From assembly GCA_043736875.1 (NCBI GenBank), contig JAYTBU010000035.1:1-32024 (forward strand): DNA of 32,024 bases, given 5' to 3'. Source of the DNA: a bacterium (GTDB taxonomy: Bacteria > Patescibacteriota > Minisyncoccia > Phycocordibacterales > UBA5272). Below are positions 13,889-21,568 of the stretch, in pieces (within the stretch, counting starts at the first letter, position 1; each line of letters opens with the position of its first letter). The notes beneath the pieces are model-generated. The model worked only from the letters and a program-made list of their open reading frames with translations. It was not told where the DNA came from and did not search any database. Position numbers and translations under genes: made by a program.

Positions 13889-16648
13889 ATGAATAATACA
13901 CCTATTTTTAATAATCCAACAGAGGAGATAGAGTATTTGCGTGCAAAAATAAAAGAAAAAGAATTATCTCTGCAAAATATCCCAAACAGATACGAGGTTG
14001 CTGACCATGCAAAAAGTGTAATTAGGGAACACAAAGAAAATGTACAAAGTGCAGAAGTAAATCCAAGTAATCAAAATATAAATACTTTAAATAAAAGTAC
14101 TCAGTCGCTAAGTGGCGAGGTATTAGAAGTCAAAAATATTTTACACACTTTATCTGGAAAAGATACGGATAGACAGGTGGCGCAGCTGGCGAGTGTGATG
14201 TTGGACAGAGGTGTCAGATTCGCAATAGACATAGCAGAGAAGATAAATAAACCAGAAATAGAAGATGACTTTCACAAGTTTTTAATTAATTATCTACTCT
14301 CAGATCACAATGATAAAGAAAAAGATATAAGTAAAAAAGAATGGAAGGCATTACATTTAAAATTATTTGAAATAGTACCACCACCATTTGATCCGGCAGG
14401 AGAAAAAAAAGACATAAAACAATATTGTCAATTGATGGAGCAGATGTATGCTGCATTGCAAATGATAGCAAATGATCCGGAAAATAGTAAAGACAATTAT
14501 TATAGTTTAGAATTGTCTATTGCCAACGGTTCAAATCAGGTGGTATTTTATGTGGCTGTGCCTGTAGAAGTGGAGGCTATACTTGAAAAGACCTTGCAGG
14601 GTTATTTCCCTGGTATAGAAGTGAGAGAAAAAAAAGAGGATTATAATATCTTTCACGATAAAGGTTATCAAGTTGCAGCTATAGCAAATCAGCATGAAAA
14701 TGCAGCTCTTCCAATAAAAACATATAAAACTTTAGAGGGTGATCCTATAACTGTAATTATAAACTCTTTTGCAAAATTACAAAAACATGGTGAAGGAGCA
14801 GCTATGCAAATACTTGTCAGGCCTGTTGGTGATACTTTTAAAAAGTCTTTTGGTAAAACTTTGGACAATATGCAAAAAGGAGGAGATAATTTTTCAAAAG
14901 CTTTAGATAGAGAATCTTTTTTTAAAGGAGCTGTTATGTCATTTTCTGAAATGATGAAAGATAAAAGTGAAAATGACAAAAATAAAGAAAAAGAAAAATC
15001 ATACAAGGATAATGAACATACAAAACTTATCACAGAAAAACTTTCTAGTACTATAGTGGACACAAATATCAGGTTATATGCCAGTGCTGCGAACCTAGAT
15101 AGGGCAAAGTTTATAATAAGTGATATGAAAGCTAGCTTTAAACAGTACACAGAAAATAATGGTAATTATCTTGATTTTACAGATTATGATATAAAAGACC
15201 TGATCACTCATACTCACGATTTTACATACAGATTATGGAAAAATGAAGAGTCCTTGCCGCTTAATTTTTCAGAGCTTGCGACGCTCTATCATGTGCCTGG
15301 GTATGTAAAAGATTTTATACAAGTTAAAACTGCAAAAATGGTTATGGCACCAGCGCCGCTAGACTTGCCTCAGGAGGGGGTGCTACTTGGCTACAATGAA
15401 TTTCGCGATATAAAAACTCCGGTGCATTTGGGGCGTGAAGACAGGGTGCGTCATTTGTATGTACTCGGTCAGACGGGTACAGGTAAGACTGTGACTCTTA
15501 AAAATCTAATAATACAAGATATATTAAACGGTGACGGTTGTTGCATGATAGATCCTCATGGTGATGATGTGAATGAGATACTCGCAAATGTCCCTCCCGA
15601 GCGTTATGATGATGTAATTTATTTTGACCCAGGATATGCGCCCATGCCTATGGGGCTCAATATGTTGGAGTATGATCCAGAATTTCCAGAATTAAAAACA
15701 CTGGTTATTAATGAGCTTTTAGGGATTTTCAATAAACTTTTTGACATGAAGTCTAGTGGTGGTGCTGGGTTCGAGGCTATGTTTCGTAATGCTACGCAGC
15801 TGGTGATGGAGCATCCAGAAAGTGGTAATACTTTACTTGAAATATCTCGCGTATTATCAGACAAAGATTTTCGTGACTATAAACTTTCCAAATGTAAAAA
15901 CCCAATGATACATCAGTATTGGAAAAATGCAGAAGCGACAACAGGTGATCAAGGGCTAGCCAACTGGGTGCCATTTATTAACAGTAAAATAGATCCATTT
16001 TTGACCAATGACATATTGCGCCCTGTAGTAGCGCAGGAGAAATCAGCTTTTAATATACGCGAGATTATGGACAAGAAAAAAATATTTTTGGTTAATCTGT
16101 CCAAAGGAAAACTTGGAGAGATAAACGCTAACCTGATAGGGCTTATACTGATAGGTAAATTTGCCCAGGCGGCGCTCGCTAGAGTAAACAGTAAAGAGAG
16201 GCCAGACTTTTATCTATACCTCGACGAGTTTCAAAATGTGGTAACACCTGCCATATCATCTATATTGTCAGAAGCTAGAAAGTATAGACTTAGCTTAAAT
16301 ATCGCTCATCAGTTTTTAGGACAGTTACCTCCGGATATTAAAGATGCTGTTTTTGGTAATGTTGGTAACATGTGTATCGGTCGCGTGGGTCCAGACGATG
16401 CTCAGTTTTTAGAGAAACAATTTGCTCCAACATTTACTGCATCTGATATTATGCGCATAGAAAATCAAAATAGTTATGCAAAGATACTGAGTAAAGGCAT
16501 GCCACAAAAAGCATTTTCACTGCATATACCATTTAACAACAGAGGTAATCCAGAAGTAGCTGAGATGCTAAAGAAAATGAGTTATGAAAAATATGGCAGA
16601 CCAAGAGAGGAAGTGGAGGAGGAGATACTGAGTAAGTATAATATTTGA
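13889..16648 (+). CDS. VirD4/TraD/HerA-like P-loop ATPase (type IV secretion coupling-protein-like)
   Basis: RHLYVLGQTGTGKT (Walker A), IDPHGD, LYLDEFQ (Walker B), SEARKYRL...AHQ. Confidence 0.88.
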   Translation: MNNTPIFNNPTEEIEYLRAKIKEKELSLQNIPNRYEVADHAKSVIREHKENVQSAEVNPSNQNINTLNKSTQSLSGEVLEVKNILHTLSGKDTDRQVAQLASVMLDRGVRFAIDIAEKINKPEIEDDFHKFLINYLLSDHNDKEKDISKKEWKALHLKLFEIVPPPFDPAGEKKDIKQYCQLMEQMYAALQMIANDPENSKDNYYSLELSIANGSNQVVFYVAVPVEVEAILEKTLQGYFPGIEVREKKEDYNIFHDKGYQVAAIANQHENAALPIKTYKTLEGDPITVIINSFAKLQKHGEGAAMQILVRPVGDTFKKSFGKTLDNMQKGGDNFSKALDRESFFKGAVMSFSEMMKDKSENDKNKEKEKSYKDNEHTKLITEKLSSTIVDTNIRLYASAANLDRAKFIISDMKASFKQYTENNGNYLDFTDYDIKDLITHTHDFTYRLWKNEESLPLNFSELATLYHVPGYVKDFIQVKTAKMVMAPAPLDLPQEGVLLGYNEFRDIKTPVHLGREDRVRHLYVLGQTGTGKTVTLKNLIIQDILNGDGCCMIDPHGDDVNEILANVPPERYDDVIYFDPGYAPMPMGLNMLEYDPEFPELKTLVINELLGIFNKLFDMKSSGGAGFEAMFRNATQLVMEHPESGNTLLEISRVLSDKDFRDYKLSKCKNPMIHQYWKNAEATTGDQGLANWVPFINSKIDPFLTNDILRPVVAQEKSAFNIREIMDKKKIFLVNLSKGKLGEINANLIGLILIGKFAQAALARVNSKERPDFYLYLDEFQNVVTPAISSILSEARKYRLSLNIAHQFLGQLPPDIKDAVFGNVGNMCIGRVGPDDAQFLEKQFAPTFTASDIMRIENQNSYAKILSKGMPQKAFSLHIPFNNRGNPEVAEMLKKMSYEKYGRPREEVEEEILSKYNI

Positions 16649-16665
16649 TTCTAGTAAGAAAATAA

Positions 16666-16698
16666 AAAAGTGTTTGCAAATATTTTGCAAACACTTTT
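16666..16698. terminator. Perfect 15-bp inverted repeat, probable bidirectional terminator
   Basis: AAAAGTGTTTGCAAA-TAT-TTTGCAAACACTTTT between convergent genes. Confidence 0.85.
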
Positions 16699-16708
16699 AG
16701 GTCTTAAA

Positions 16709-16924
16709 CTATTTCTGTCTATTTTTAAATTTATATTTTAATCTCCTCCAGAAATTTTCAATTTCTGGAGTTTTTGCTTTTAATGCTGCGTCAGCTTTGT
16801 TAAAAGAAAAATGTATAAAGAGCGCAGAAGTTATCAGTCCCAGCCCCCAGAATATAAGCTTTAATTTAAGCAAGATGAGCAAAAGTACTCCTACAGCTAC
16901 CCACAAAAATGTTTTCATAATCAT
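16709..16924 (-). CDS. Small two-TM membrane protein
   Basis: Hydrophobic N-terminal half and basic tail; TAATG stop/start overlap with the upstream gene. Confidence 0.6.
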   Translation of the reverse strand: MIMKTFLWVAVGVLLLILLKLKLIFWGLGLITSALFIHFSFNKADAALKAKTPEIENFWRRLKYKFKNRQK

Positions 16925-17643
16925 TACTCCTTATTTTTAGTTTCAAGAAATGGTTTAACTTTTTGATGTAGACGTAAACCAACATCAAACACACTGTATA
17001 ACTTGTATATCCAGTAAATTGCGAATATCTCATACTCAGAAAGATAATTTATATTCTTCTCAGAATTAGCAGAAGTTTCATATTTCCACCATTCTTTTAA
17101 AAATTTTTTCCAGTCTTTTGCTCTAGATAAAAAATCAGCATCAAAGTATAAGTTACTAAAACCAGAAAAAATCACAAATGTATCATTAAATTTCTCATGA
17201 TCAGCCATCTCTATTTTATGAGAGTGTAGATATGCATGAGCAACTTCATGTGCCAGTGTTCTGACTATTTCTTCGGTGCCGTAAGTTAAAACATTTAAAC
17301 TAACTTTAATCTTGAATGTATAAGATTCAAAATCTTTAGACTCTGTGTCTGGTATGTTTTTTGGTATAGATATACTTGCAAGTGTGCCAGCTGGCATATC
17401 TATCAAAGAGAGATCAAAATTACATTTTAAACCATAATGCTTTGCTATATCCTCCGCTACAAAAGTTAATGTATTAACATTATCTAGTTTATAGCTTTTT
17501 GCCAAGGACAAATCATAAGAGTAGGGCAGCCCCGACTCTTTGTATATTTCTATAGATTTCTTTATGTATTCAGGTATTATAAATATGTCAAAAGATGTGA
17601 GCATTACTCGCCTCCTTACTATGTTATATATGTTATTGAACAT
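16924..17643 (-). CDS. HExxH zinc metallopeptidase-like protein (ImmA/IrrE-like); start uncertain
   Basis: RTLAHEVAHAYL...HEKFND motif. The ORF is open to 17691; ATG 17643 was chosen as a plausible start. Confidence 0.6.
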   Translation of the reverse strand: MFNNIYNIVRRRVMLTSFDIFIIPEYIKKSIEIYKESGLPYSYDLSLAKSYKLDNVNTLTFVAEDIAKHYGLKCNFDLSLIDMPAGTLASISIPKNIPDTESKDFESYTFKIKVSLNVLTYGTEEIVRTLAHEVAHAYLHSHKIEMADHEKFNDTFVIFSGFSNLYFDADFLSRAKDWKKFLKEWWKYETSANSEKNINYLSEYEIFAIYWIYKLYSVFDVGLRLHQKVKPFLETKNKE

Positions 17644-17721
17644 TTTTTTTGCTAATAATTTTAGTAGCAAAAACCTCTTATAATATAGCATATTTTTAAG
17701 CTTTTAACAAAGTGTTTTTTG

Positions 17722-17730
17722 TGGTATAAT
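17722..17730 (+). promoter_or_regulatory. Extended -10 promoter for the tRNA-Cys/mreB unit
   Basis: TG-G-TATAAT, 45 nt upstream of the degenerate tRNA copy. Confidence 0.55.
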
Positions 17731-17775
17731 ATGTATATAAGATTTTATCTATAAAATAGTAAATTTTTAAAAAAA

Positions 17776-17844
17776 GATGCAGTGGCGAAGTGGTAACCAT
17801 AATGGTCTGCCAGAAAAAATAGACACCATGCGCAGATTGAGATT
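17776..17844 (+). pseudogene. Degenerate tandem copy of tRNA-Cys
   Basis: Three blocks identical to the tRNA, in order: 22 nt (17776-17797), TGGTCTGC (17803-17810) and CACCATGCGC (17824-17833). No TTC loop or 3' acceptor strand. Confidence 0.75.
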
Positions 17845-17862
17845 GGGATAGGGTTAAAATAT

Positions 17863-17937
17863 GATGCAGTGGCGAAGTGGTAACGCTGTGGTCTGCAAAA
17901 CCACCATGCGCGAGTTCGATTCTCGCCTGCATCTCCA
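17863..17937 (+). tRNA. tRNA-Cys (GCA)
   Basis: Acceptor GATGCAG/CTGCATC; anticodon arm GTGGT-CTGCAAA-ACCAC; T arm GCGAG-TTCGATT-CTCGC; U73; encoded CCA. Confidence 0.97.
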
Positions 17938-18986
17938 TGTTAGAAAAATTAAAAAACAAATTCTCAAATGATATAGGTATAGACCTCGGAACTGCTAATA
18001 CTCTGGTTTATGTTCGTGACGTAGGTATAGTGCTCAACGAGCCAAGTGTCGTAGCTGTTAATGTAAAGACTGATAGAATGGTAGCTATAGGTGAAGCAGC
18101 AAAACAGATGATGGGCAGAACCCCAACACATATCAAGTGCGTGAGACCACTAGTTGATGGTGTGATCAGTGATTATGAGATAACTGAGGAGATGTTAGGT
18201 TACCTTATTAACAAAGCTAACAATATACATAAAAAGTTCCTGCGCCCACGTGTTGTAGTTGGTGTGCCAGTAGGCATAACTAATGTTGAGACTAGGGCGG
18301 TATATGATGCTGCGCGCGCCGCAGGCGCGCGCGAAGTGTACATTATCGAGGAGCCTATGGCTGCAGCTATAGGTATCAAGATGCCAGTGCACGATGCAGA
18401 AGGTTCTATGATCATAGATATAGGAGGGGGTACAACTGACATAGCGGTCATCTCTCTCTCAGGTATAGTGAAAGCAAAGTCTGTGAAAATTGCAGGGGAT
18501 AAGCTAACTAGTGATATTGTTACTTATTTTAAAGATGATCATAAGCTTCTTATTGGAGAGAAAACAGCAGAAGATATAAAAGAAAATATAGGATCAGCTA
18601 TGCCTATTGGAGACCCAGCTGACATGATAGTACGTGGCCGCGATATGGTTTCTGGATTACCAAAAGAGATAACGATAAGCGACAGTGATATTAGAAAATG
18701 CATGTATCAGTCTATATCGTTAGTAATAGAATCAGTTAGGGAAGTAATAGAGATGACGCCACCAGAAGTTTTGATAGATATTATGAGAAAAGGTATAGTG
18801 GTTGCTGGAGGAGGAGCTTTGATCAAAGGCTTACCAGAATTAATGCAAATACAATTAAAAGTTCCTGTGCATGCATGTGAAGATCCTCTTACTGCTGTTG
18901 CACGTGGTTGCGGTATAATCTTAGAAGATGTAGAAAAGTATAGAGATGTTTTAATAAAAGACCATGAAGAAATCGCATTTAGATAA
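17937..18986 (+). CDS. mreB: Rod shape-determining protein MreB
   Basis: IGIDLGTANT, RPLVDGVI, EEPMAAAIG, IDIGGGTT and AGGGAL motifs. ATG 17937 gives the normal N-terminal length. Confidence 0.97.
   Translation: MLEKLKNKFSNDIGIDLGTANTLVYVRDVGIVLNEPSVVAVNVKTDRMVAIGEAAKQMMGRTPTHIKCVRPLVDGVISDYEITEEMLGYLINKANNIHKKFLRPRVVVGVPVGITNVETRAVYDAARAAGAREVYIIEEPMAAAIGIKMPVHDAEGSMIIDIGGGTTDIAVISLSGIVKAKSVKIAGDKLTSDIVTYFKDDHKLLIGEKTAEDIKENIGSAMPIGDPADMIVRGRDMVSGLPKEITISDSDIRKCMYQSISLVIESVREVIEMTPPEVLIDIMRKGIVVAGGGALIKGLPELMQIQLKVPVHACEDPLTAVARGCGIILEDVEKYRDVLIKDHEEIAFR
18312..18332 (+). repeat. Perfect 9-bp all-GC intragenic inverted repeat with C-GCA-G triloop
   Basis: GCGCGCGCC-GCA-GGCGCGCGC inside mreB. 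Confidence 0.85.
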
Positions 18987-19707
18987 TAATTTTTATACAA
19001 AGTTTTTTTTAGCAGTATCTATTTTTTTAATTATATACTATTTTTTTAATTATAATATTAAAAATTTTTTTATAAATAATTATGTAAATATTTATACTAA
19101 AATAAATCTCTTCAAAACTGAAAATACGAATCAGTTAAAAGCTCTAGATTTTGAGAAACAAAAATTAGAAAATAGAGTATTTGAGCTTGAGCAGTATATT
19201 AAAAATGCAAGCGATACAGCTTCTATATTAAATATGGGTCAAATAGAAGTTGTTGCAGCAAGTAAAATATCAAACAATTTTTTATCAAAAAATATAATAT
19301 ATAGCGATCTTATCCTGAACAAGGGTCTTGTCGAATATGTAAAAAATGATGATATGGTTTTTGTTTCAGGATTTAAACCTGTCGGTTTTATTTCTGAGAC
19401 ATATAACTCCTCATCAAAAGTCACCTTATTTACACAGGATAAATTAGAAACAAAAGCAGTAATTAAAATAGGTCAAGATTATATATCTTTAAAATTAATT
19501 GGTGACGGCACATTTGGATTTACTGCAAATGTACCAGACTCTATAAATCTAGAAATTGGTCAAGCTGTGTACACCAATAACTCTGATAATTTTTCTCTAG
19601 GTAATATTATTGACATTAAAAATGAAGACAGTACAAAAGAAAAAATACTTTATATAAACTCTAATTATTCTAATCATGAAGGTTCTGCCTTTTATGTTCA
19701 GATATAA
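18964..19707 (+). CDS. mreC: Rod shape-determining protein MreC (divergent)
   Basis: Position after mreB; TM helix, short coiled coil, then LILNKG...V...D.V...VG.I and V.LFT patterns. Confidence 0.75.
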   Translation: MKKSHLDNNFYTKFFLAVSIFLIIYYFFNYNIKNFFINNYVNIYTKINLFKTENTNQLKALDFEKQKLENRVFELEQYIKNASDTASILNMGQIEVVAASKISNNFLSKNIIYSDLILNKGLVEYVKNDDMVFVSGFKPVGFISETYNSSSKVTLFTQDKLETKAVIKIGQDYISLKLIGDGTFGFTANVPDSINLEIGQAVYTNNSDNFSLGNIIDIKNEDSTKEKILYINSNYSNHEGSAFYVQI

Positions 19708-19722
19708 ATCATTAAAGCTAAT

Positions 19723-19878
19723 ATGAAAAAGAATCACCTTAAAATATTTTCACTTATTATTTTCCTAGCATCCATTTTAATAGATATTTTGTATTCGGGT
19801 TTTCTGCCTATTTATAGTATAATGTGTTTAGTTTTATATATAATCATACATGTCACTATTCCATATATTCGCAAATAA
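19723..19878 (+). CDS. 51-aa two-TM protein in the mreD position (mini-MreD candidate)
   Basis: Translated by hand: MKKNHLKIFSLIIFLASILIDILYSGFLPIYSIMCLVLYIIIHVTIPYIRK. Fills the mreC-mrdA gap and overlaps the mrdA start. Confidence 0.6.
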   Translation: MKKNHLKIFSLIIFLASILIDILYSGFLPIYSIMCLVLYIIIHVTIPYIRK

Positions 19879-21568
19879 AAATAAGAGAAATACAAAAGAA
19901 ATAGACCCAGAAGATATTTTTTTAGAGTCTACAAATCTTTCAAATCTTGATCAGGATAATTTTGAGGGGCGTTTTGAAAAGCTTATAGAAAAAAAACTTT
20001 TTTATTTTATAGCAGCATCTTTAGTTCTGGTATTTAGTTTTTTTACTTATAAAGCAAGTTTGATACAAGTAAAAGATTATGAGAAGTGGAGTAATTTGGC
20101 TGACAAAAATTACCTAAAAAAGACCCCGATATTTCCTAGTCGCGGTGTAATAAAAGATAGAAATGGAGAGCTGTTGGTGTGGAATGAAGATGTTACAAGC
20201 TCCACCAATACTATATCAAGTAGATTTTATACAAAAGATTTAGGTATCTCTTCTTTGCTTGGATATGTCTCGTACCCTAAAAAAGATAAGTCTGGACATT
20301 TTTGGCAAAATGATTATATAGGTTCTGCGGGATTGGAAAAAAAATACAATGACGTACTCTCTGGAGTTAATGGTGAAAAAGTTATAGAAATAAATGCTAA
20401 CGGTACCATAGCAAAAGATAATATATTAAATAAACCAGTAGATGGTAAAAATGTAGAGACTAATATAGATGCGCGTCTTCAAAAAATATTTTATAACAAA
20501 CTAAGAGACGTCGTAGATGTTCAGGGTTTTGATGGTGGTGCTGCAGTTATGATGAATGTAAATACGGGAGAGGTGCTAGCTCTTGTAAGTGTCCCAGATT
20601 TTGACAGTAACATATATGCAAATGCTACAAATACAGAAGACAAAAAAATTAAAAATAGTTATTTGGAAGATGTTAGGACTCCTATGTTAAATAGAGTTAT
20701 TAACGGCTCATACGTTCCTGGATCTGTTGTAAAGCCGTTCATGGCTTATGCTGCACTTTATGAGGGTGTTATAGGTGAGTATGGCAATATATATTCTAGT
20801 GGGCAGTTAGTTATAAAAAATAAATATGGTGGACCAGATACTATTTTTCGTGACTGGAAAGCTCATGGTTATGTAGATGCTAGAAAAGCTATAGCAGAGA
20901 GTAGTGACGAGTATTTTTATCAAGTTGGAGGTGGCTACATGGATCAGGCTGGAATAGGAATAAATAAAATAGAAAAGTATATGAAGTTTTTTGGATTTGC
21001 TAGTAGTACAGGTATTGATTTTCCTTCAGAAAAAATCGGAATAGTCCCGAGTATAGAATGGAAAAAGAAAAATTTTGCTGAAGGTGATTGGCTACTTGGT
21101 AATACCTATCACACATCTATAGGGCAATATGGATTCAAGACGACACCACTAGAGTTAGTGAGATCTATAGCTATCATTGCTAATGGTGGTAGGTTAGTTA
21201 TTCCAAAAATTTTGAAAATAAAAAACCTGGAAGAAGTAATAACTATGCAGACAGATTTGAAACTTGATCAAAATATATTAAAAGTTATGCGTGAGGGTAT
21301 GCGAGGTGCTGCAGGTGAGGGAGGTACAGCGCATTATTTTTCTGATTTACCTTTTAAAGTCAGTGCAAAAACTGGTACAGCGCAGCTCGGTTTTAATAAT
21401 GAAAGAGTTAACAGCTGGTCTAGTGGATACTGGCCCAGCGAAAATCCAAAATACGCTTTTGTATTTATGATGGAGGATGGTCCAGCGAGTAACAAAGTAG
21501 CAAGCAGCAAGATAATGAGGCACGTCTTTGGGGACATTCTAGAGACTTTACCAGAATATACAAAGTAA
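19850..21568 (+). CDS. mrdA: Penicillin-binding protein 2 (class B transpeptidase)
   Basis: RGVIKDRNG, G..GLEK.Y, PGSVVK (SxxK), SSD and KTGTAQ motifs; mre cluster context. Confidence 0.92.
   Translation: MSLFHIFANKNKRNTKEIDPEDIFLESTNLSNLDQDNFEGRFEKLIEKKLFYFIAASLVLVFSFFTYKASLIQVKDYEKWSNLADKNYLKKTPIFPSRGVIKDRNGELLVWNEDVTSSTNTISSRFYTKDLGISSLLGYVSYPKKDKSGHFWQNDYIGSAGLEKKYNDVLSGVNGEKVIEINANGTIAKDNILNKPVDGKNVETNIDARLQKIFYNKLRDVVDVQGFDGGAAVMMNVNTGEVLALVSVPDFDSNIYANATNTEDKKIKNSYLEDVRTPMLNRVINGSYVPGSVVKPFMAYAALYEGVIGEYGNIYSSGQLVIKNKYGGPDTIFRDWKAHGYVDARKAIAESSDEYFYQVGGGYMDQAGIGINKIEKYMKFFGFASSTGIDFPSEKIGIVPSIEWKKKNFAEGDWLLGNTYHTSIGQYGFKTTPLELVRSIAIIANGGRLVIPKILKIKNLEEVITMQTDLKLDQNILKVMREGMRGAAGEGGTAHYFSDLPFKVSAKTGTAQLGFNNERVNSWSSGYWPSENPKYAFVFMMEDGPASNKVASSKIMRHVFGDILETLPEYTK

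What the first reader, a model, noticed from the sequence alone, without database searches (positions are those of the whole stretch)
17863..17945. tRNA-Cys CCA end overlaps the mreB start codon
Seen: the tRNA ends ...CTGCATC-T-CCA at 17937, and that final A is the A of the mreB ATG (CC[A]TG TTA GAA, MLEKLKNKFSNDIGIDLG). There is no spacer, RBS or other in-frame ATG before the IGIDLG motif. Inference: the mreB-mreC-mrdA mRNA has a tRNA as its 5' leader. Maturation that keeps the encoded CCA would remove the mreB start. RNase Z-type cleavage after U73 would instead release a near-leaderless CCAUG mRNA, like mitochondrial tRNA punctuation. This could link tRNA processing to cell-elongation gene expression.
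Basis: partly seen in the sequence, partly recalled or inferred. Interest (0 to 1): 0.85.

Follow-up and report, generated by a model that had tools for sequence, protein, structure and literature searches.

The report
tRNA gene fused to mreB start codon
In a tiny-genome bacterium that mostly makes messenger RNAs with no leader, the only cysteine tRNA gene runs straight into the start codon of the cell-shape gene mreB, so cutting the tRNA free probably creates the mreB message, much as happens in mitochondria.

Summary
tRNA-Cys(GCA) spans 17863-17937, and its encoded A76 is the A of the mreB ATG.

The junction is real. An independent 21.1-kb assembly and short contigs from three other studies bridge it. 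It is missing from all 29 species-level relatives checked.

The context changes the reading:
- **Leaderless genome.** In this 0.67-Mb, 33% GC CPR-type genome, a -10 box ends exactly 6 nt before the ATG in 135 of 585 ORFs. SD-like motifs are rare.
- **Relatives.** Six relatives (four congeners) have such a leaderless promoter on mreB.
- **Recurrence.** Two more tRNAs here abut ORF starts: Lys/atpB and Lys/C39 peptidase. At least nine further tRNA-gene pairs do so in relatives.
- **Enzymes.** RNase Z was not found in any of 41 genomes. RNase P, a CCA-adding enzyme, RNase J and a TTHA0252-type beta-CASP nuclease are present.
- **tRNA ends.** All 31 tRNA genes encode C74.

Best reading: the tRNA promoter drives mreB. 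An unidentified endonuclease cuts at the tRNA 3' end, perhaps after C74, and releases a (near-)leaderless mRNA. The CCA enzyme then repairs the tRNA.

No RNA data exist.

The parts
17720..17730 (+). Extended -10 promoter-like box TGTGGTATAAT. It is the likely promoter of the whole tRNA-Cys/mreB unit, with an expected start near 17737.
   Evidence: Sequence. It matches the genome-wide TGnTAnnnT promoter type. An X4 contig joins 17720-17775 directly to the tRNA. Function is inferred, not shown.
17776..17862 (+). Decayed upstream copy of tRNA-Cys (87-nt repeat unit). The first 22 nt of the tRNA are identical, the anticodon loop carries an 8-nt insertion, and the T arm and 3' acceptor strand are lost.
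   Evidence: Alignment A1, 78% column identity. BLAST hit at 17776-17810, 89%. Not called by ARAGORN or Rfam. Absent from the X4 contig (skips 87 nt) and apparently from X3.
17863..17937 (+). tRNA-Cys(GCA) with U73 and an encoded CCA. It is the only tRNA-Cys in the 91%-complete assembly.
   Evidence: ARAGORN. Rfam 65.1 bits. Seven of seven acceptor pairs. CysRS present. 97-99% identical to tRNA-Cys of four congeners, which also encode TCCA.
17934..17937 (+). Junction U73-C74-C75-A76, where A76 is the A of the mreB ATG. This is the proposed endonucleolytic cleavage window: after U73, C74 or C75.
   Evidence: Sequence. All 31 tRNA genes carry C74. Cleavage itself is inferred. A precedent for cutting between the two Cs in an RNase-Z-less bacterium is in PMC3848588 (passages read).
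17937..18986 (+). mreB, 349 aa.
   Evidence: Pfam MreB_Mbl 435.7 bits over residues 10-335. The start is homologous to the orthologues' starts. Of the 22 differences listed for the X2 strain inside mreB, 20 fall on third codon positions (my count from the table).
18964..19707 (+). mreC. It overlaps the end of mreB by 23 nt and has no SD.
   Evidence: Pfam MreC 31.2 bits. Upstream sequence.
19723..19878 (+). 51-aa hydrophobic ORF between mreC and mrdA, in the position where mreD would sit. Unverified.
   Evidence: ORF list. No family search was run.
19850..21568 (+). mrdA / PBP2-type transpeptidase.
   Evidence: Pfam Transpeptidase 177.9 bits and PBP_dimer 57.4 bits.
16924..17691 (-). Divergent SprT-like metalloprotease gene that bounds the intergenic region.
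   Evidence: ORF. Pfam SprT-like E 8e-5, below the cut-off.

Best explanation
The tRNA-Cys gene and mreB-mreC-mrdA form one transcription unit, driven by a promoter upstream of the tRNA. The organism normally starts translation on mRNAs whose 5' end is the AUG itself. Here the 5' end is made by RNA processing rather than by a promoter.

Proposed steps:
1. RNase P frees the tRNA 5' end.
2. An endonuclease other than RNase Z cuts within U73-C74-C75-A76. After C74 is most likely, because C74 is encoded in every tRNA gene of the genome.
3. The cut yields a tRNA ending in ...U73-C(C) and an mRNA beginning (C)(C)AUG with a 5' phosphate.
4. The CCA-adding enzyme completes the tRNA end.
5. The ribosome initiates on the (near-)leaderless mreB mRNA.

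Candidate nucleases are the conserved TTHA0252-type beta-CASP ribonuclease and RNase J.

Shown: the geometry, the absence of any room for a promoter or RBS, genome-wide leaderless architecture, recurrence of such junctions, and which enzymes are present or not found. Inferred: co-transcription, the cut and its position, CCA repair, and leaderless translation of the processed RNA.

The arrangement looks like a general expression mode of this lineage (bacterial 'tRNA punctuation'). It does not look like a regulatory device specific to cell elongation.
For: 1. **Geometry.** The junction and the orthologous start are as described.
2. **No promoter in the tRNA.** The bases at -12..-7 before the ATG are GCCTGC, not a -10 box. 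Promoter-like hits across 16600-19100 are no more frequent than in shuffles (13 vs 11.6 +/- 3.6).
3. **Leaderless genome.** Of 585 first-ATG ORFs of at least 100 aa, 135 have TANNNT ending exactly 6 nt before the ATG, 83 of them with TGn. Background at other spacings (12-39 nt) is 24-44 and 1-11. SD-like 4-mers peak at only 20.
4. **Leaderless mreB in relatives.** mreB has TGnTAnnnT plus 6 nt plus ATG in 6 of 29 relatives examined: G001, G002, G008, G010, G016, G022.
5. **Recurrence in this genome.** 3 of 31 tRNAs abut an ORF ATG at offset 0-1: Cys/mreB, Lys(TTT)/ATP-synt_A of 268 aa, and Lys(CTT)/Peptidase_C39_2 of 188 aa. Expected by chance: 0.028.
6. **Recurrence in the genus.** Of 20 tRNAs with an ATG 0-3 nt after the tRNA end (found by pattern in 13 genomes), 13 open ORFs of at least 88 aa. 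By comparison, 16.5% of all ATGs in the genome do so (binomial P 1.6e-6; relatives are not independent). Two more cases at 0-3 nt were found in 5 other genomes of the family. Nine of 10 such ORFs have Pfam domains. In five of them the profile begins at residues 1-7.
7. **Enzymes.** RNase Z: 0 of 41 genomes over cut-off, own best 19 bits. Found: RNase P RNA and RnpA, a 512-aa CCA-adding enzyme, RNase J, and a beta-CASP nuclease with E 1.7e-73 to TTHA0252, kept in 38 of 41 relatives.
8. **tRNA 3' ends.** C74 is encoded in 31 of 31 tRNA genes. The 20 CCA-less genes have A75 (17) or T75 (3), so the A of an abutting ATG sits where A75 usually is.
9. **Precedent.** In P. acnes, which also lacks an obvious tRNase Z, dRNA-seq found cleavage inside encoded CCA 'always between the Cs' (PMC3848588, passages read).
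10. **Open start region.** The mRNA start region 17935-18000 is almost unstructured (-3.6 kcal/mol).
11. **Persistence.** The junction is held in strains from three other studies, and variation in mreB is mostly synonymous.
Against: - There is no RNA evidence of any kind: no RNA run holds the stretch. Co-transcription, the cut and leaderless translation are therefore all inferred.
- The tRNA-Cys/mreB junction is absent from all 29 species-level relatives examined, so it is young. A further 14 named loci also lack it, but these may overlap the 29.
- In an unbiased sample of the tRNAs ARAGORN called in 28 relatives' tRNA-Cys loci, none abuts an ORF at 0-3 nt. Abutment is therefore a minority state, and G000 is unusually rich in it.
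- Downstream genes of the operon (mreC, orf51, mrdA) also lack SD. This ribosome can therefore start at internal AUGs, and processing may not be obligatory.
- atpB in most congeners has a 12-23-nt SD-less leader rather than none.
- An encoded CCA is an anti-determinant for RNase Z-type cutting in model bacteria (recalled, not tested here).
- The nuclease is unidentified. The beta-CASP and RNase J assignments are guesses.
- A 5'-monophosphate mRNA would be a substrate for the 5'-exonuclease activity of RNase J (established knowledge of the family).
- The genome is 91% complete, so 'not found' for RNases is not proof of absence in G000. However, several relatives listed at 100% completeness also lack RNase Z.
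Confidence: 0.6

Rival explanations
1. The tRNA is not cut away before translation. The full tRNA-mreB RNA is the working mRNA. The folded tRNA acts as a 5' cap-like structure that protects against the 5' exonuclease of RNase J, and ribosomes start SD-independently at the AUG right after it. The tRNA matures only when the mRNA body is degraded 3'-to-5' by the RNB-family exonuclease down to the acceptor stem. Each transcript would then serve first as mRNA and later as tRNA.
For: Internal genes of the same operon start without SD, so internal SD-less initiation exists. The only 3' exonuclease family found is RNB (RNase R/II). RNase PH/PNPase, RNase E/G, RNase Y and RNase Z were not found. RNase J is present. 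atpB of congeners has short SD-less leaders.
Against: The AUG touches a stable 7-bp acceptor stem (tRNA fold -26.7 kcal/mol). That leaves no single-stranded RNA upstream for the ribosome's mRNA channel. The spacing of real-gene junctions is tightly limited, with the AUG starting 1-3 nt after the discriminator. This fits a requirement for a terminal AUG better than mere tolerance. The genome's dominant promoter geometry places the 5' end on the AUG. Trimming back to the encoded CCA would still destroy the start codon only after use, so this rival is not excluded.
Confidence: 0.2
2. A cryptic promoter inside or just before the tRNA gene gives mreB its own primary transcript. The start would be either exactly at 17937 or inside the tRNA, for example from the TTGAGA-17-TATGAT match at 17837-17865, which predicts a start near 17872.
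For: The consensus scan lists TTGAGA-17-TATGAT with 10 of 12 matches at 17837-17865.
Against: No TAnnnT box lies 5-8 nt before the ATG. Promoter-like hits are at shuffle level (13 vs 11.6 +/- 3.6). The 17837-17865 match lacks the TGn extension typical of this genome. Its -35 half lies in the decayed copy, which the X4 strain, and apparently X3, lack. The two tRNA-Lys junctions likewise have no -10 box in the acceptor region.
Confidence: 0.07
3. The junction is a recent, nearly neutral or slightly harmful rearrangement. mreB is poorly expressed or dispensable because a second MreB paralogue exists, and nothing is specifically processed.
For: The junction is absent from 29 species-level relatives. 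G000 and nearly all relatives carry a second MreB-like gene of 46% identity, at C52:2972-3955 in G000.
Against: The junction is held in strains from three other studies that differ by about 1-8%. Twenty of the 22 differences listed for the X2 strain inside mreB are third-position changes, which indicates purifying selection in the frame set by ATG 17937. Ten to twelve independent tRNA-gene junctions of the same kind involve essential genes such as atpB.
Confidence: 0.08

Closest known systems
Mitochondrial tRNA punctuation (Ojala, Montoya and Attardi 1981). Reference seen only in the reference lists and passages of PMC10941002 and PMC4633059. The model itself is recalled.
   Same: tRNAs directly flank coding sequences with 0 to a few nt between them. 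Excising the tRNA defines the mRNA 5' end. The released mRNAs are leaderless and translated without SD. The CCA is added or repaired after cleavage.
   Different: In mitochondria RNase Z makes the 3' cut, whereas no RNase Z was found here. Here only a minority of tRNAs (3 of 31) punctuate, and most leaderless mRNAs come from promoters. This is a bacterial chromosome, not an organelle. There is no RNA evidence yet.
Bacterial tRNA-mRNA co-transcription units such as E. coli thrU-tyrU-glyT-thrT-tufB
   Same: tRNA genes and a protein gene share a promoter, and the mRNA 5' end arises by tRNA processing.
   Different: In E. coli a spacer with a Shine-Dalgarno site separates the last tRNA from the ORF. 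Here the spacer is 0 nt and the CCA overlaps the ATG.
Cleavage inside encoded CCA in Propionibacterium acnes (Lin et al. 2013, PMC3848588; passages read).
   Same: The bacterium lacks an obvious tRNase Z, has many leaderless mRNAs, shows an endonucleolytic cut 'always between the Cs' of the encoded CCA, and has a CCA enzyme presumed to repair the end.
   Different: No case was reported there of the downstream product being an mRNA that starts at its AUG. It is a different phylum, and that organism has RNase E, PH and D, which were not found here.
Promoter-derived leaderless mRNAs (Actinobacteria, Deinococcus, archaea). Mycobacterial and Streptomyces examples are in PMC4633059 and PMC4681348 (passages read).
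   Same: Translation from a 5'-terminal AUG, with the -10 box about 6-7 nt upstream. This is the norm in this genome and for mreB in six relatives, four of them congeners.
   Different: For mreB here, a tRNA gene occupies the place of the -10 box. The 5' end must therefore be processed (monophosphate) rather than primary (triphosphate).
MazF-generated leaderless mRNAs in E. coli. Mentioned in passages of PMC3848588; details recalled.
   Same: Leaderless mRNAs created post-transcriptionally by an endonuclease.
   Different: MazF is a stress toxin that cuts at ACA and leaves a 5'-OH. Here the determinant would be the tRNA structure, under normal growth.

Membership tests
tRNA-Cys (canonical elongator tRNA) | Cloverleaf that scores above the Rfam tRNA threshold, with a GCA anticodon | tested here: met
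   Rfam RF00005 scores 65.1 bits against a gathering score of 29. ARAGORN calls anticodon gca. Seven of seven acceptor pairs.
tRNA-Cys (canonical elongator tRNA) | U73 discriminator (a CysRS identity element; recalled) | tested here: met
   T at 17934, after the acceptor strand CTGCATC. CysRS gene present.
MreB/Mbl actin-like protein | Full-length match to the family profile, including the N-terminal phosphate-1 motif | tested here: met
   PF06723 scores 435.7 bits over residues 10-335 of 349. IGIDLGTA lies at residues 13-20.
tRNA punctuation (mitochondrial type) | tRNA directly abuts the coding sequence on one transcript, with no promoter or RBS between | tested here: met
   0-nt spacer with a 1-nt overlap. 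No -10 box within the tRNA 3' part. Co-transcription itself was not observed.
tRNA punctuation (mitochondrial type) | RNase P present for the 5' cut | tested here: met
   RnpA scores 36.6 bits, over cut-off. RNase P RNA scores 85.6 bits, E 4e-27, full length but below the gathering score of 100.
tRNA punctuation (mitochondrial type) | RNase Z makes the 3' cut | tested here: not met
   TIGR02651: own best 19 bits against a cut-off of 293, and 0 of 41 genomes over cut-off. G000 is 91% complete, but several relatives listed at 100% completeness also lack it.
tRNA punctuation (mitochondrial type) | Released mRNAs are leaderless and translated as such | not testable with these tools
   There is only indirect support: 135 of 585 ORFs have a -10 box 6 nt before the ATG. 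No RNA run is available.
Primary (promoter-derived) leaderless mRNA | A -10 element about 6-7 nt upstream, so that transcription starts on the A of the ATG | tested here: not met
   Positions -12..-7 are GCCTGC, inside the tRNA acceptor strand. The feature is met for mreB in six relatives.
Classical bacterial tRNA-ORF operon (tufB type) | Spacer with a Shine-Dalgarno site between the last tRNA and the ORF | tested here: not met
   There is no spacer. The bases before the ATG are tRNA.

The most novel reading that the evidence does not exclude
A whole lineage of CPR/Patescibacteria (Paceibacteria-like) would use tRNA 3'-end processing as a regular way to make translatable mRNAs: bacterial tRNA punctuation. 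An RNase-Z-independent endonuclease, possibly the conserved TTHA0252/CPSF73-type beta-CASP enzyme, would cut every pre-tRNA after the universally encoded C74. Where an ATG sits at positions 75-77, the downstream product is a ready-made leaderless mRNA with a 5' phosphate. Genes could then lose their own promoters and ride on tRNA promoters. tRNA-Cys|mreB is the most extreme case, with the start codon sharing a base with the CCA end.
Probability: 0.45. Interest if true: 0.85.

Novelty: new variant of a known kind. Interest (0 to 1): 0.72.

Why it matters
If RNA data confirm it, this would be tRNA punctuation operating in a bacterium. Until now that way of defining mRNA 5' ends has been associated with mitochondria.

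It would show three things:
- Processed, 5'-monophosphate, AUG-terminal RNAs feed the leaderless translation pathway in a bacterium.
- tRNA and mRNA maturation can share a single phosphodiester bond, so that one transcript must sacrifice either the encoded CCA or the start codon.
- An unidentified enzyme replaces RNase Z in a large group of uncultured bacteria.

It also matters for annotation. Gene callers that forbid overlap between a CDS and a tRNA, or that require an RBS, will truncate or miss such genes. Finally, it offers a route by which streamlined genomes can shed promoters.

Tried and rejected
**RNA evidence.** The look-up of sequencing runs listed no RNA holder for 17600-18300. Expression, 5' ends and cleavage could not be examined.

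**More copies of the junction.**
- An exact 26-nt junction pattern found 0 stretches in metagenome contigs.
- An 18-nt sub-pattern found 72 stretches. All are chance matches in unrelated contigs of 42-72% GC, and none has an MreB-like N-terminal (GIDLG) motif after the ATG.
- mreB loci of 29 relatives have 0 tRNAs upstream. These were the best 30 loci of 41 genomes searched, so 11 genomes' mreB loci were not examined. Flanks reach up to 1.5 kb, and one locus has only 84 nt upstream.
- 14 named genome-contig loci have 0 tRNAs. Some may be the same genomes as the handles.

**tRNA-Cys context.** In 28 relatives tRNA-Cys lies in a Cys/Leu/Lys/Leu tRNA cluster and is never next to mreB.

**atpB.** Only 1 of 25 relatives' loci (G006) has tRNA-Lys(TTT) upstream, with a 13-nt spacer after the CCA.

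**Anti-SD check.** A short conserved 16S 3'-region motif was not found in the assembly. The 16S rRNA 3' end, and so the anti-SD, could not be read.

**Internal promoter.** Rejected as the main reading; see the rival explanations.

**Literature.** Searches found no paper in the held library that describes a bacterial tRNA whose 3' end defines a leaderless mRNA start. The following were seen only as passages through 'find': PMC4681348, PMC12641178, PMC4633059, PMC12641261, PMC6851277, PMC4946936, PMC10941002 and PMC3848588. Subscription journals are not covered, and supplements are closed. The Haloferax tRNA-like-element work (Holzle et al. 2012) is recalled only, and its text was not seen.

**Other tools.** No structure prediction or complex prediction was run, because none would bear on the question.
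Full report
**What is in the sequence**

ARAGORN finds one tRNA in the window, tRNA-Cys(GCA) at 17863-17937 on the + strand. Rfam's tRNA model scores it at 65.1 bits, against a gathering score of 29. The gene ends ...CTGCATC-T-CCA. The last A, at 17937, is the A of an ATG that opens a 349-codon frame ending at 18986.

That frame is MreB (Pfam MreB_Mbl 435.7 bits). It is followed by mreC, a 51-aa ORF and a PBP2-type mrdA. No ATG, GTG or TTG lies in frame between 17940 and the IGIDLG motif. The only upstream in-frame start is inside the tRNA. In 29 relatives the MreB orthologue begins at the homologous residue, for example MFEKWKNKFSNEIGIDLG.

**Is the junction real?**

The window is contig C35 of a 668,598-base, 55-contig, 33% GC assembly that is 90.9% complete. 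Record titles of genomes with 55-85% identical MreB name Patescibacteria, Ca. Paceibacteria, Campbellbacteria and Nomurabacteria. This is therefore a CPR-type bacterium.

- A Logan contig of 21,100 nt from run X1 covers 17500-18400 with no difference. X1 is probably the source sample, so this is a second assembler rather than second data.
- Contigs from three other studies bridge position 17937:
  - X2 has 453 nt over 17855-18307 with 24 differences.
  - X3 has 301 nt over 17859-18134 with 23 differences.
  - X4 has 151 nt that joins 17720-17775 to 17863-17957 with 3 differences.
- Of the 22 differences listed for X2 inside mreB, 20 fall on third codon positions (my count from the table; 17 rows of that table were not shown).
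- No listed difference falls in 17848-17946.

Both genes thus look functional, and the junction is maintained in diverged strains.

At species level the junction is not conserved. None of 29 relatives' mreB loci has a tRNA upstream. Nor do 14 named loci, which may overlap those 29. In 28 relatives tRNA-Cys sits in a tRNA cluster with its own TGTTATAAT promoter about 10 nt upstream. The four closest congeners also encode TCCA, so the encoded CCA is ancestral and the rearrangement joined mreB exactly at it.

**Surroundings**

An extended -10 box, TGTGGTATAAT, lies at 17720-17730.

Between it and the tRNA lies a decayed copy of the tRNA (17776-17862). Its first 22 nt are identical, and it has an 8-nt insertion in the anticodon loop and a ruined T arm and 3' acceptor strand. 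The X4 contig lacks this 87-nt unit. The X3 contig has a TGTGTTATAAT box about 10 nt before the tRNA instead.

In every version the only promoter-like element lies upstream of the tRNA. The six bases at -12..-7 before the ATG are GCCTGC. Promoter-like matches in 16600-19100 are no more frequent than in shuffles (13 vs 11.6 +/- 3.6). mreB must therefore be transcribed through the tRNA. This is an inference from anatomy.

**The organism is leaderless-dominated**

I took the first ATG of 585 non-overlapping ORFs of at least 100 aa and asked where a TANNNT hexamer ends relative to the ATG.

- 135 have it exactly 6 nt upstream, and 83 of those carry the TGn extension.
- At spacings of 12-39 nt the counts are 24-44 and 1-11.
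- SD-like tetramers peak at only 20.

With a start 7 nt after the -10 box, transcription begins on the A of the ATG.

mreB itself has this TGnTAnnnT-6-ATG geometry in G001, G002, G008, G010, G016 and G022. In this lineage mreB is therefore normally a leaderless mRNA. In G000 the tRNA gene occupies the place of the promoter.

**The junction type recurs**

In G000, 3 of 31 tRNAs are followed at offset 0-1 by the ATG of a long ORF:
- tRNA-Cys/mreB.
- tRNA-Lys(TTT)-C|ATG, before an ATP synthase subunit a gene of 268 aa.
- tRNA-Lys(CTT)-C|ATG, before a Peptidase_C39_2 gene of 188 aa.

Gene-start density predicts 0.028 such cases (Poisson P about 3e-6).

I then ran a T-loop-to-ATG pattern over 13 congeners, followed by ARAGORN and ORF checks. 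This gave 20 tRNAs with an ATG 0-3 nt after the tRNA end. I dropped a dense tRNA array (L138) and one tRNA-tRNA junction (L096) before counting.

- 13 open ORFs of at least 88 aa.
- One opens 60 aa.
- One runs off its contig.
- Five open 18 aa or fewer.
- Only 16.5% of all ATGs in the genome open 88 or more codons (binomial P 1.6e-6, overstated because relatives are not independent).

Distinct pairs are Gln/88-aa ORF, Asp/FeS-assembly, Ala/Exo_endo_phos, Phe/DHH, Met/DHH, Val/DUF192 (five genomes) and Gly/NUDIX. In five other genomes of the family there are also Leu/BacA and Lys/SpoU.

Nine of ten such ORFs have Pfam domains. In five of them the profile starts at residues 1-7, so the abutting ATG is the real start.

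Against this, the tRNAs ARAGORN called in 28 relatives' tRNA-Cys loci, which were not selected by the ATG pattern, include no abutment at 0-3 nt. The state is therefore a recurrent minority, and G000 is rich in it.

**tRNA 3' ends and enzymes**

- Eleven of 31 tRNA genes encode CCA. All 31 encode C74. The 20 CCA-less genes continue with A (17) or T (3), never C.
- In true-gene junctions the AUG begins at tRNA position 75, 76 or 77. All four junctions with CCA-encoding tRNAs read CCA|TG.
- RNase Z was not found. The own best score is 19 bits against a cut-off of 293, and 0 of 41 genomes are over cut-off, including relatives listed at 100% completeness.
- RNase Y, RNase E/G and RNase PH/PNPase were also not found in G000.
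- Found in G000:
  - RNase P RNA (85.6 bits, below the gathering score) and RnpA.
  - One RNB exonuclease.
  - RNase J.
  - A 512-aa CCA-adding enzyme.
  - A 460-aa beta-CASP ribonuclease most like T. thermophilus TTHA0252 (E 1.7e-73) and CPSF73/Int11/aCPSF1. It is kept in 38 of 41 relatives.
- CysRS is present, and this is the only tRNA-Cys gene in the assembly.

**Mechanism proposed**

The tRNA promoter makes a precursor of leader, tRNA-Cys and mreB-mreC-mrdA. RNase P frees the tRNA 5' end. An endonuclease that is not RNase Z cuts between U73 and the AUG. I favour a cut after C74 for three reasons:
- C74 is universally encoded here.
- The A of abutting ATGs sits where A75 usually is.
- In P. 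acnes, another leaderless-rich bacterium without an obvious tRNase Z, dRNA-seq showed cuts inside encoded CCA 'always between the Cs' (PMC3848588, passages read).

The products would be tRNA-Cys ending in ...U-C, which the CCA enzyme completes, and an mRNA starting C-AUG. For the tRNA-Lys junctions the mRNA would start exactly at AUG.

The first 66 nt of the mRNA are nearly unstructured (-3.6 kcal/mol). Metallo-beta-lactamase nucleases leave a 5' phosphate and a 3' OH (family knowledge). That would suit both leaderless initiation and CCA addition.

All steps after transcription are inferred. No RNA run holds this stretch.

**Rivals**

- The uncut precursor may be translated, with the tRNA acting as a protective 5' structure and maturing only when the mRNA decays 3'-to-5'. 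Internal genes of the operon also lack SD, so SD-less internal initiation exists. However, the AUG touches a 7-bp stem, and the narrow 1-3-nt spacing in real-gene junctions argues for a terminal AUG.
- A cryptic promoter has no sequence support.
- A neutral accident with an unexpressed mreB is opposed by the synonymous pattern of variation and by persistence across strains. A second MreB paralogue does exist, though.

The idea that the junction links tRNA processing to cell elongation finds no support. The partner genes of such junctions are functionally unrelated.

**Comparison and novelty**

Functionally this works like mitochondrial tRNA punctuation feeding leaderless translation. It fails one defining feature of that system, RNase Z, and it applies to a minority of tRNAs.

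It differs from classical bacterial tRNA-ORF operons (tufB type, recalled) by having no spacer or SD. It differs from ordinary leaderless mRNAs by having a processed rather than a primary 5' end.

Seven literature searches found no description of a bacterial tRNA whose 3' end defines a leaderless mRNA start. The library lacks most subscription journals, and supplements were closed.

I rate it a new variant of a known kind. It would be of high interest if RNA mapping confirms it, and it is directly testable.

Noticed in passing
G000 whole genome (all 31 tRNA genes; e.g. window 17935): Every tRNA gene encodes C at position 74. The 20 genes without CCA continue with A (17) or T (3), never C. This suggests a 3'-processing rule tied to C74 in a genome where RNase Z was not found.
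   Followed up: partly
G000 whole genome: The genome is leaderless-dominated. A TANNNT box ends exactly 6 nt before the first ATG in 135 of 585 ORFs (83 with TGn), often as TATGTTATAAT. SD-like motifs are rare.
   Followed up: yes
G000 tRNA genes (upstream strings): Many tRNA genes have TATAAT ending about 8-11 nt before tRNA position +1. Their 5' leaders would then be only about 1-4 nt long, which makes them near-leaderless tRNAs.
   Followed up: no
window 17776-17862: This is a decayed tandem copy of tRNA-Cys (87-nt unit). It is present in G000 and in the X2 contigs, absent from the X4 contig, and apparently absent from X3. Whether it is a remnant duplication or was lost in other strains by recombination across the 22-nt identical stretch is unresolved.
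   Followed up: partly
G000:C21:8344-9723 (+): A 460-aa TTHA0252/CPSF73-type beta-CASP ribonuclease is conserved in 38 of 41 relatives that show no RNase Z. It is a candidate for the missing tRNA 3' endonuclease.
   Followed up: partly
G000 whole genome: The RNase set is minimal. RNase P, RNase J, one RNB exonuclease and the beta-CASP enzyme were found. RNase Z, Y, E/G and PH/PNPase were not found (assembly 91% complete).
   Followed up: partly
G000:C52:2972-3955 (-): There is a second MreB-like paralogue of 46% identity. Nearly all of the 40 relatives searched show one as well.
   Followed up: no
window 19835-19852: A TATAAT box ends 5 nt before the mrdA ATG, inside the 51-aa ORF. It may be an internal leaderless promoter for mrdA.
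   Followed up: no
G000:C54:12256-13752 (-): A second cysS-like frame is interrupted by one TAA, alongside an intact cysS at C27:23579-24871.
   Followed up: no
L138 (G008:C6:16400-18230): A dense array of about 17 tRNA genes, all with encoded CCA and 0-5-nt spacers. This is unlike the rest of the genus and may be of foreign or phage origin.
   Followed up: no
G000:C42:27978-28035 (-): The 3' half of a tRNA is cut by the contig end, so ARAGORN does not call it. It also has C74-A75 and is followed by a terminator-like hairpin rather than an ORF.
   Followed up: partly
L124 (G007) and L126 (G004): The same DHH/DHHA1 gene, with the same N-terminus, abuts tRNA-Met in one congener and tRNA-Phe in another. 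The abutments therefore arose independently.
   Followed up: partly
G000:C1:8712-9092 (+): The RNase P RNA matches the bacterial type-A model over its full length but scores only 85.6 bits, below the gathering score of 100. It is a divergent RNase P RNA.
   Followed up: no
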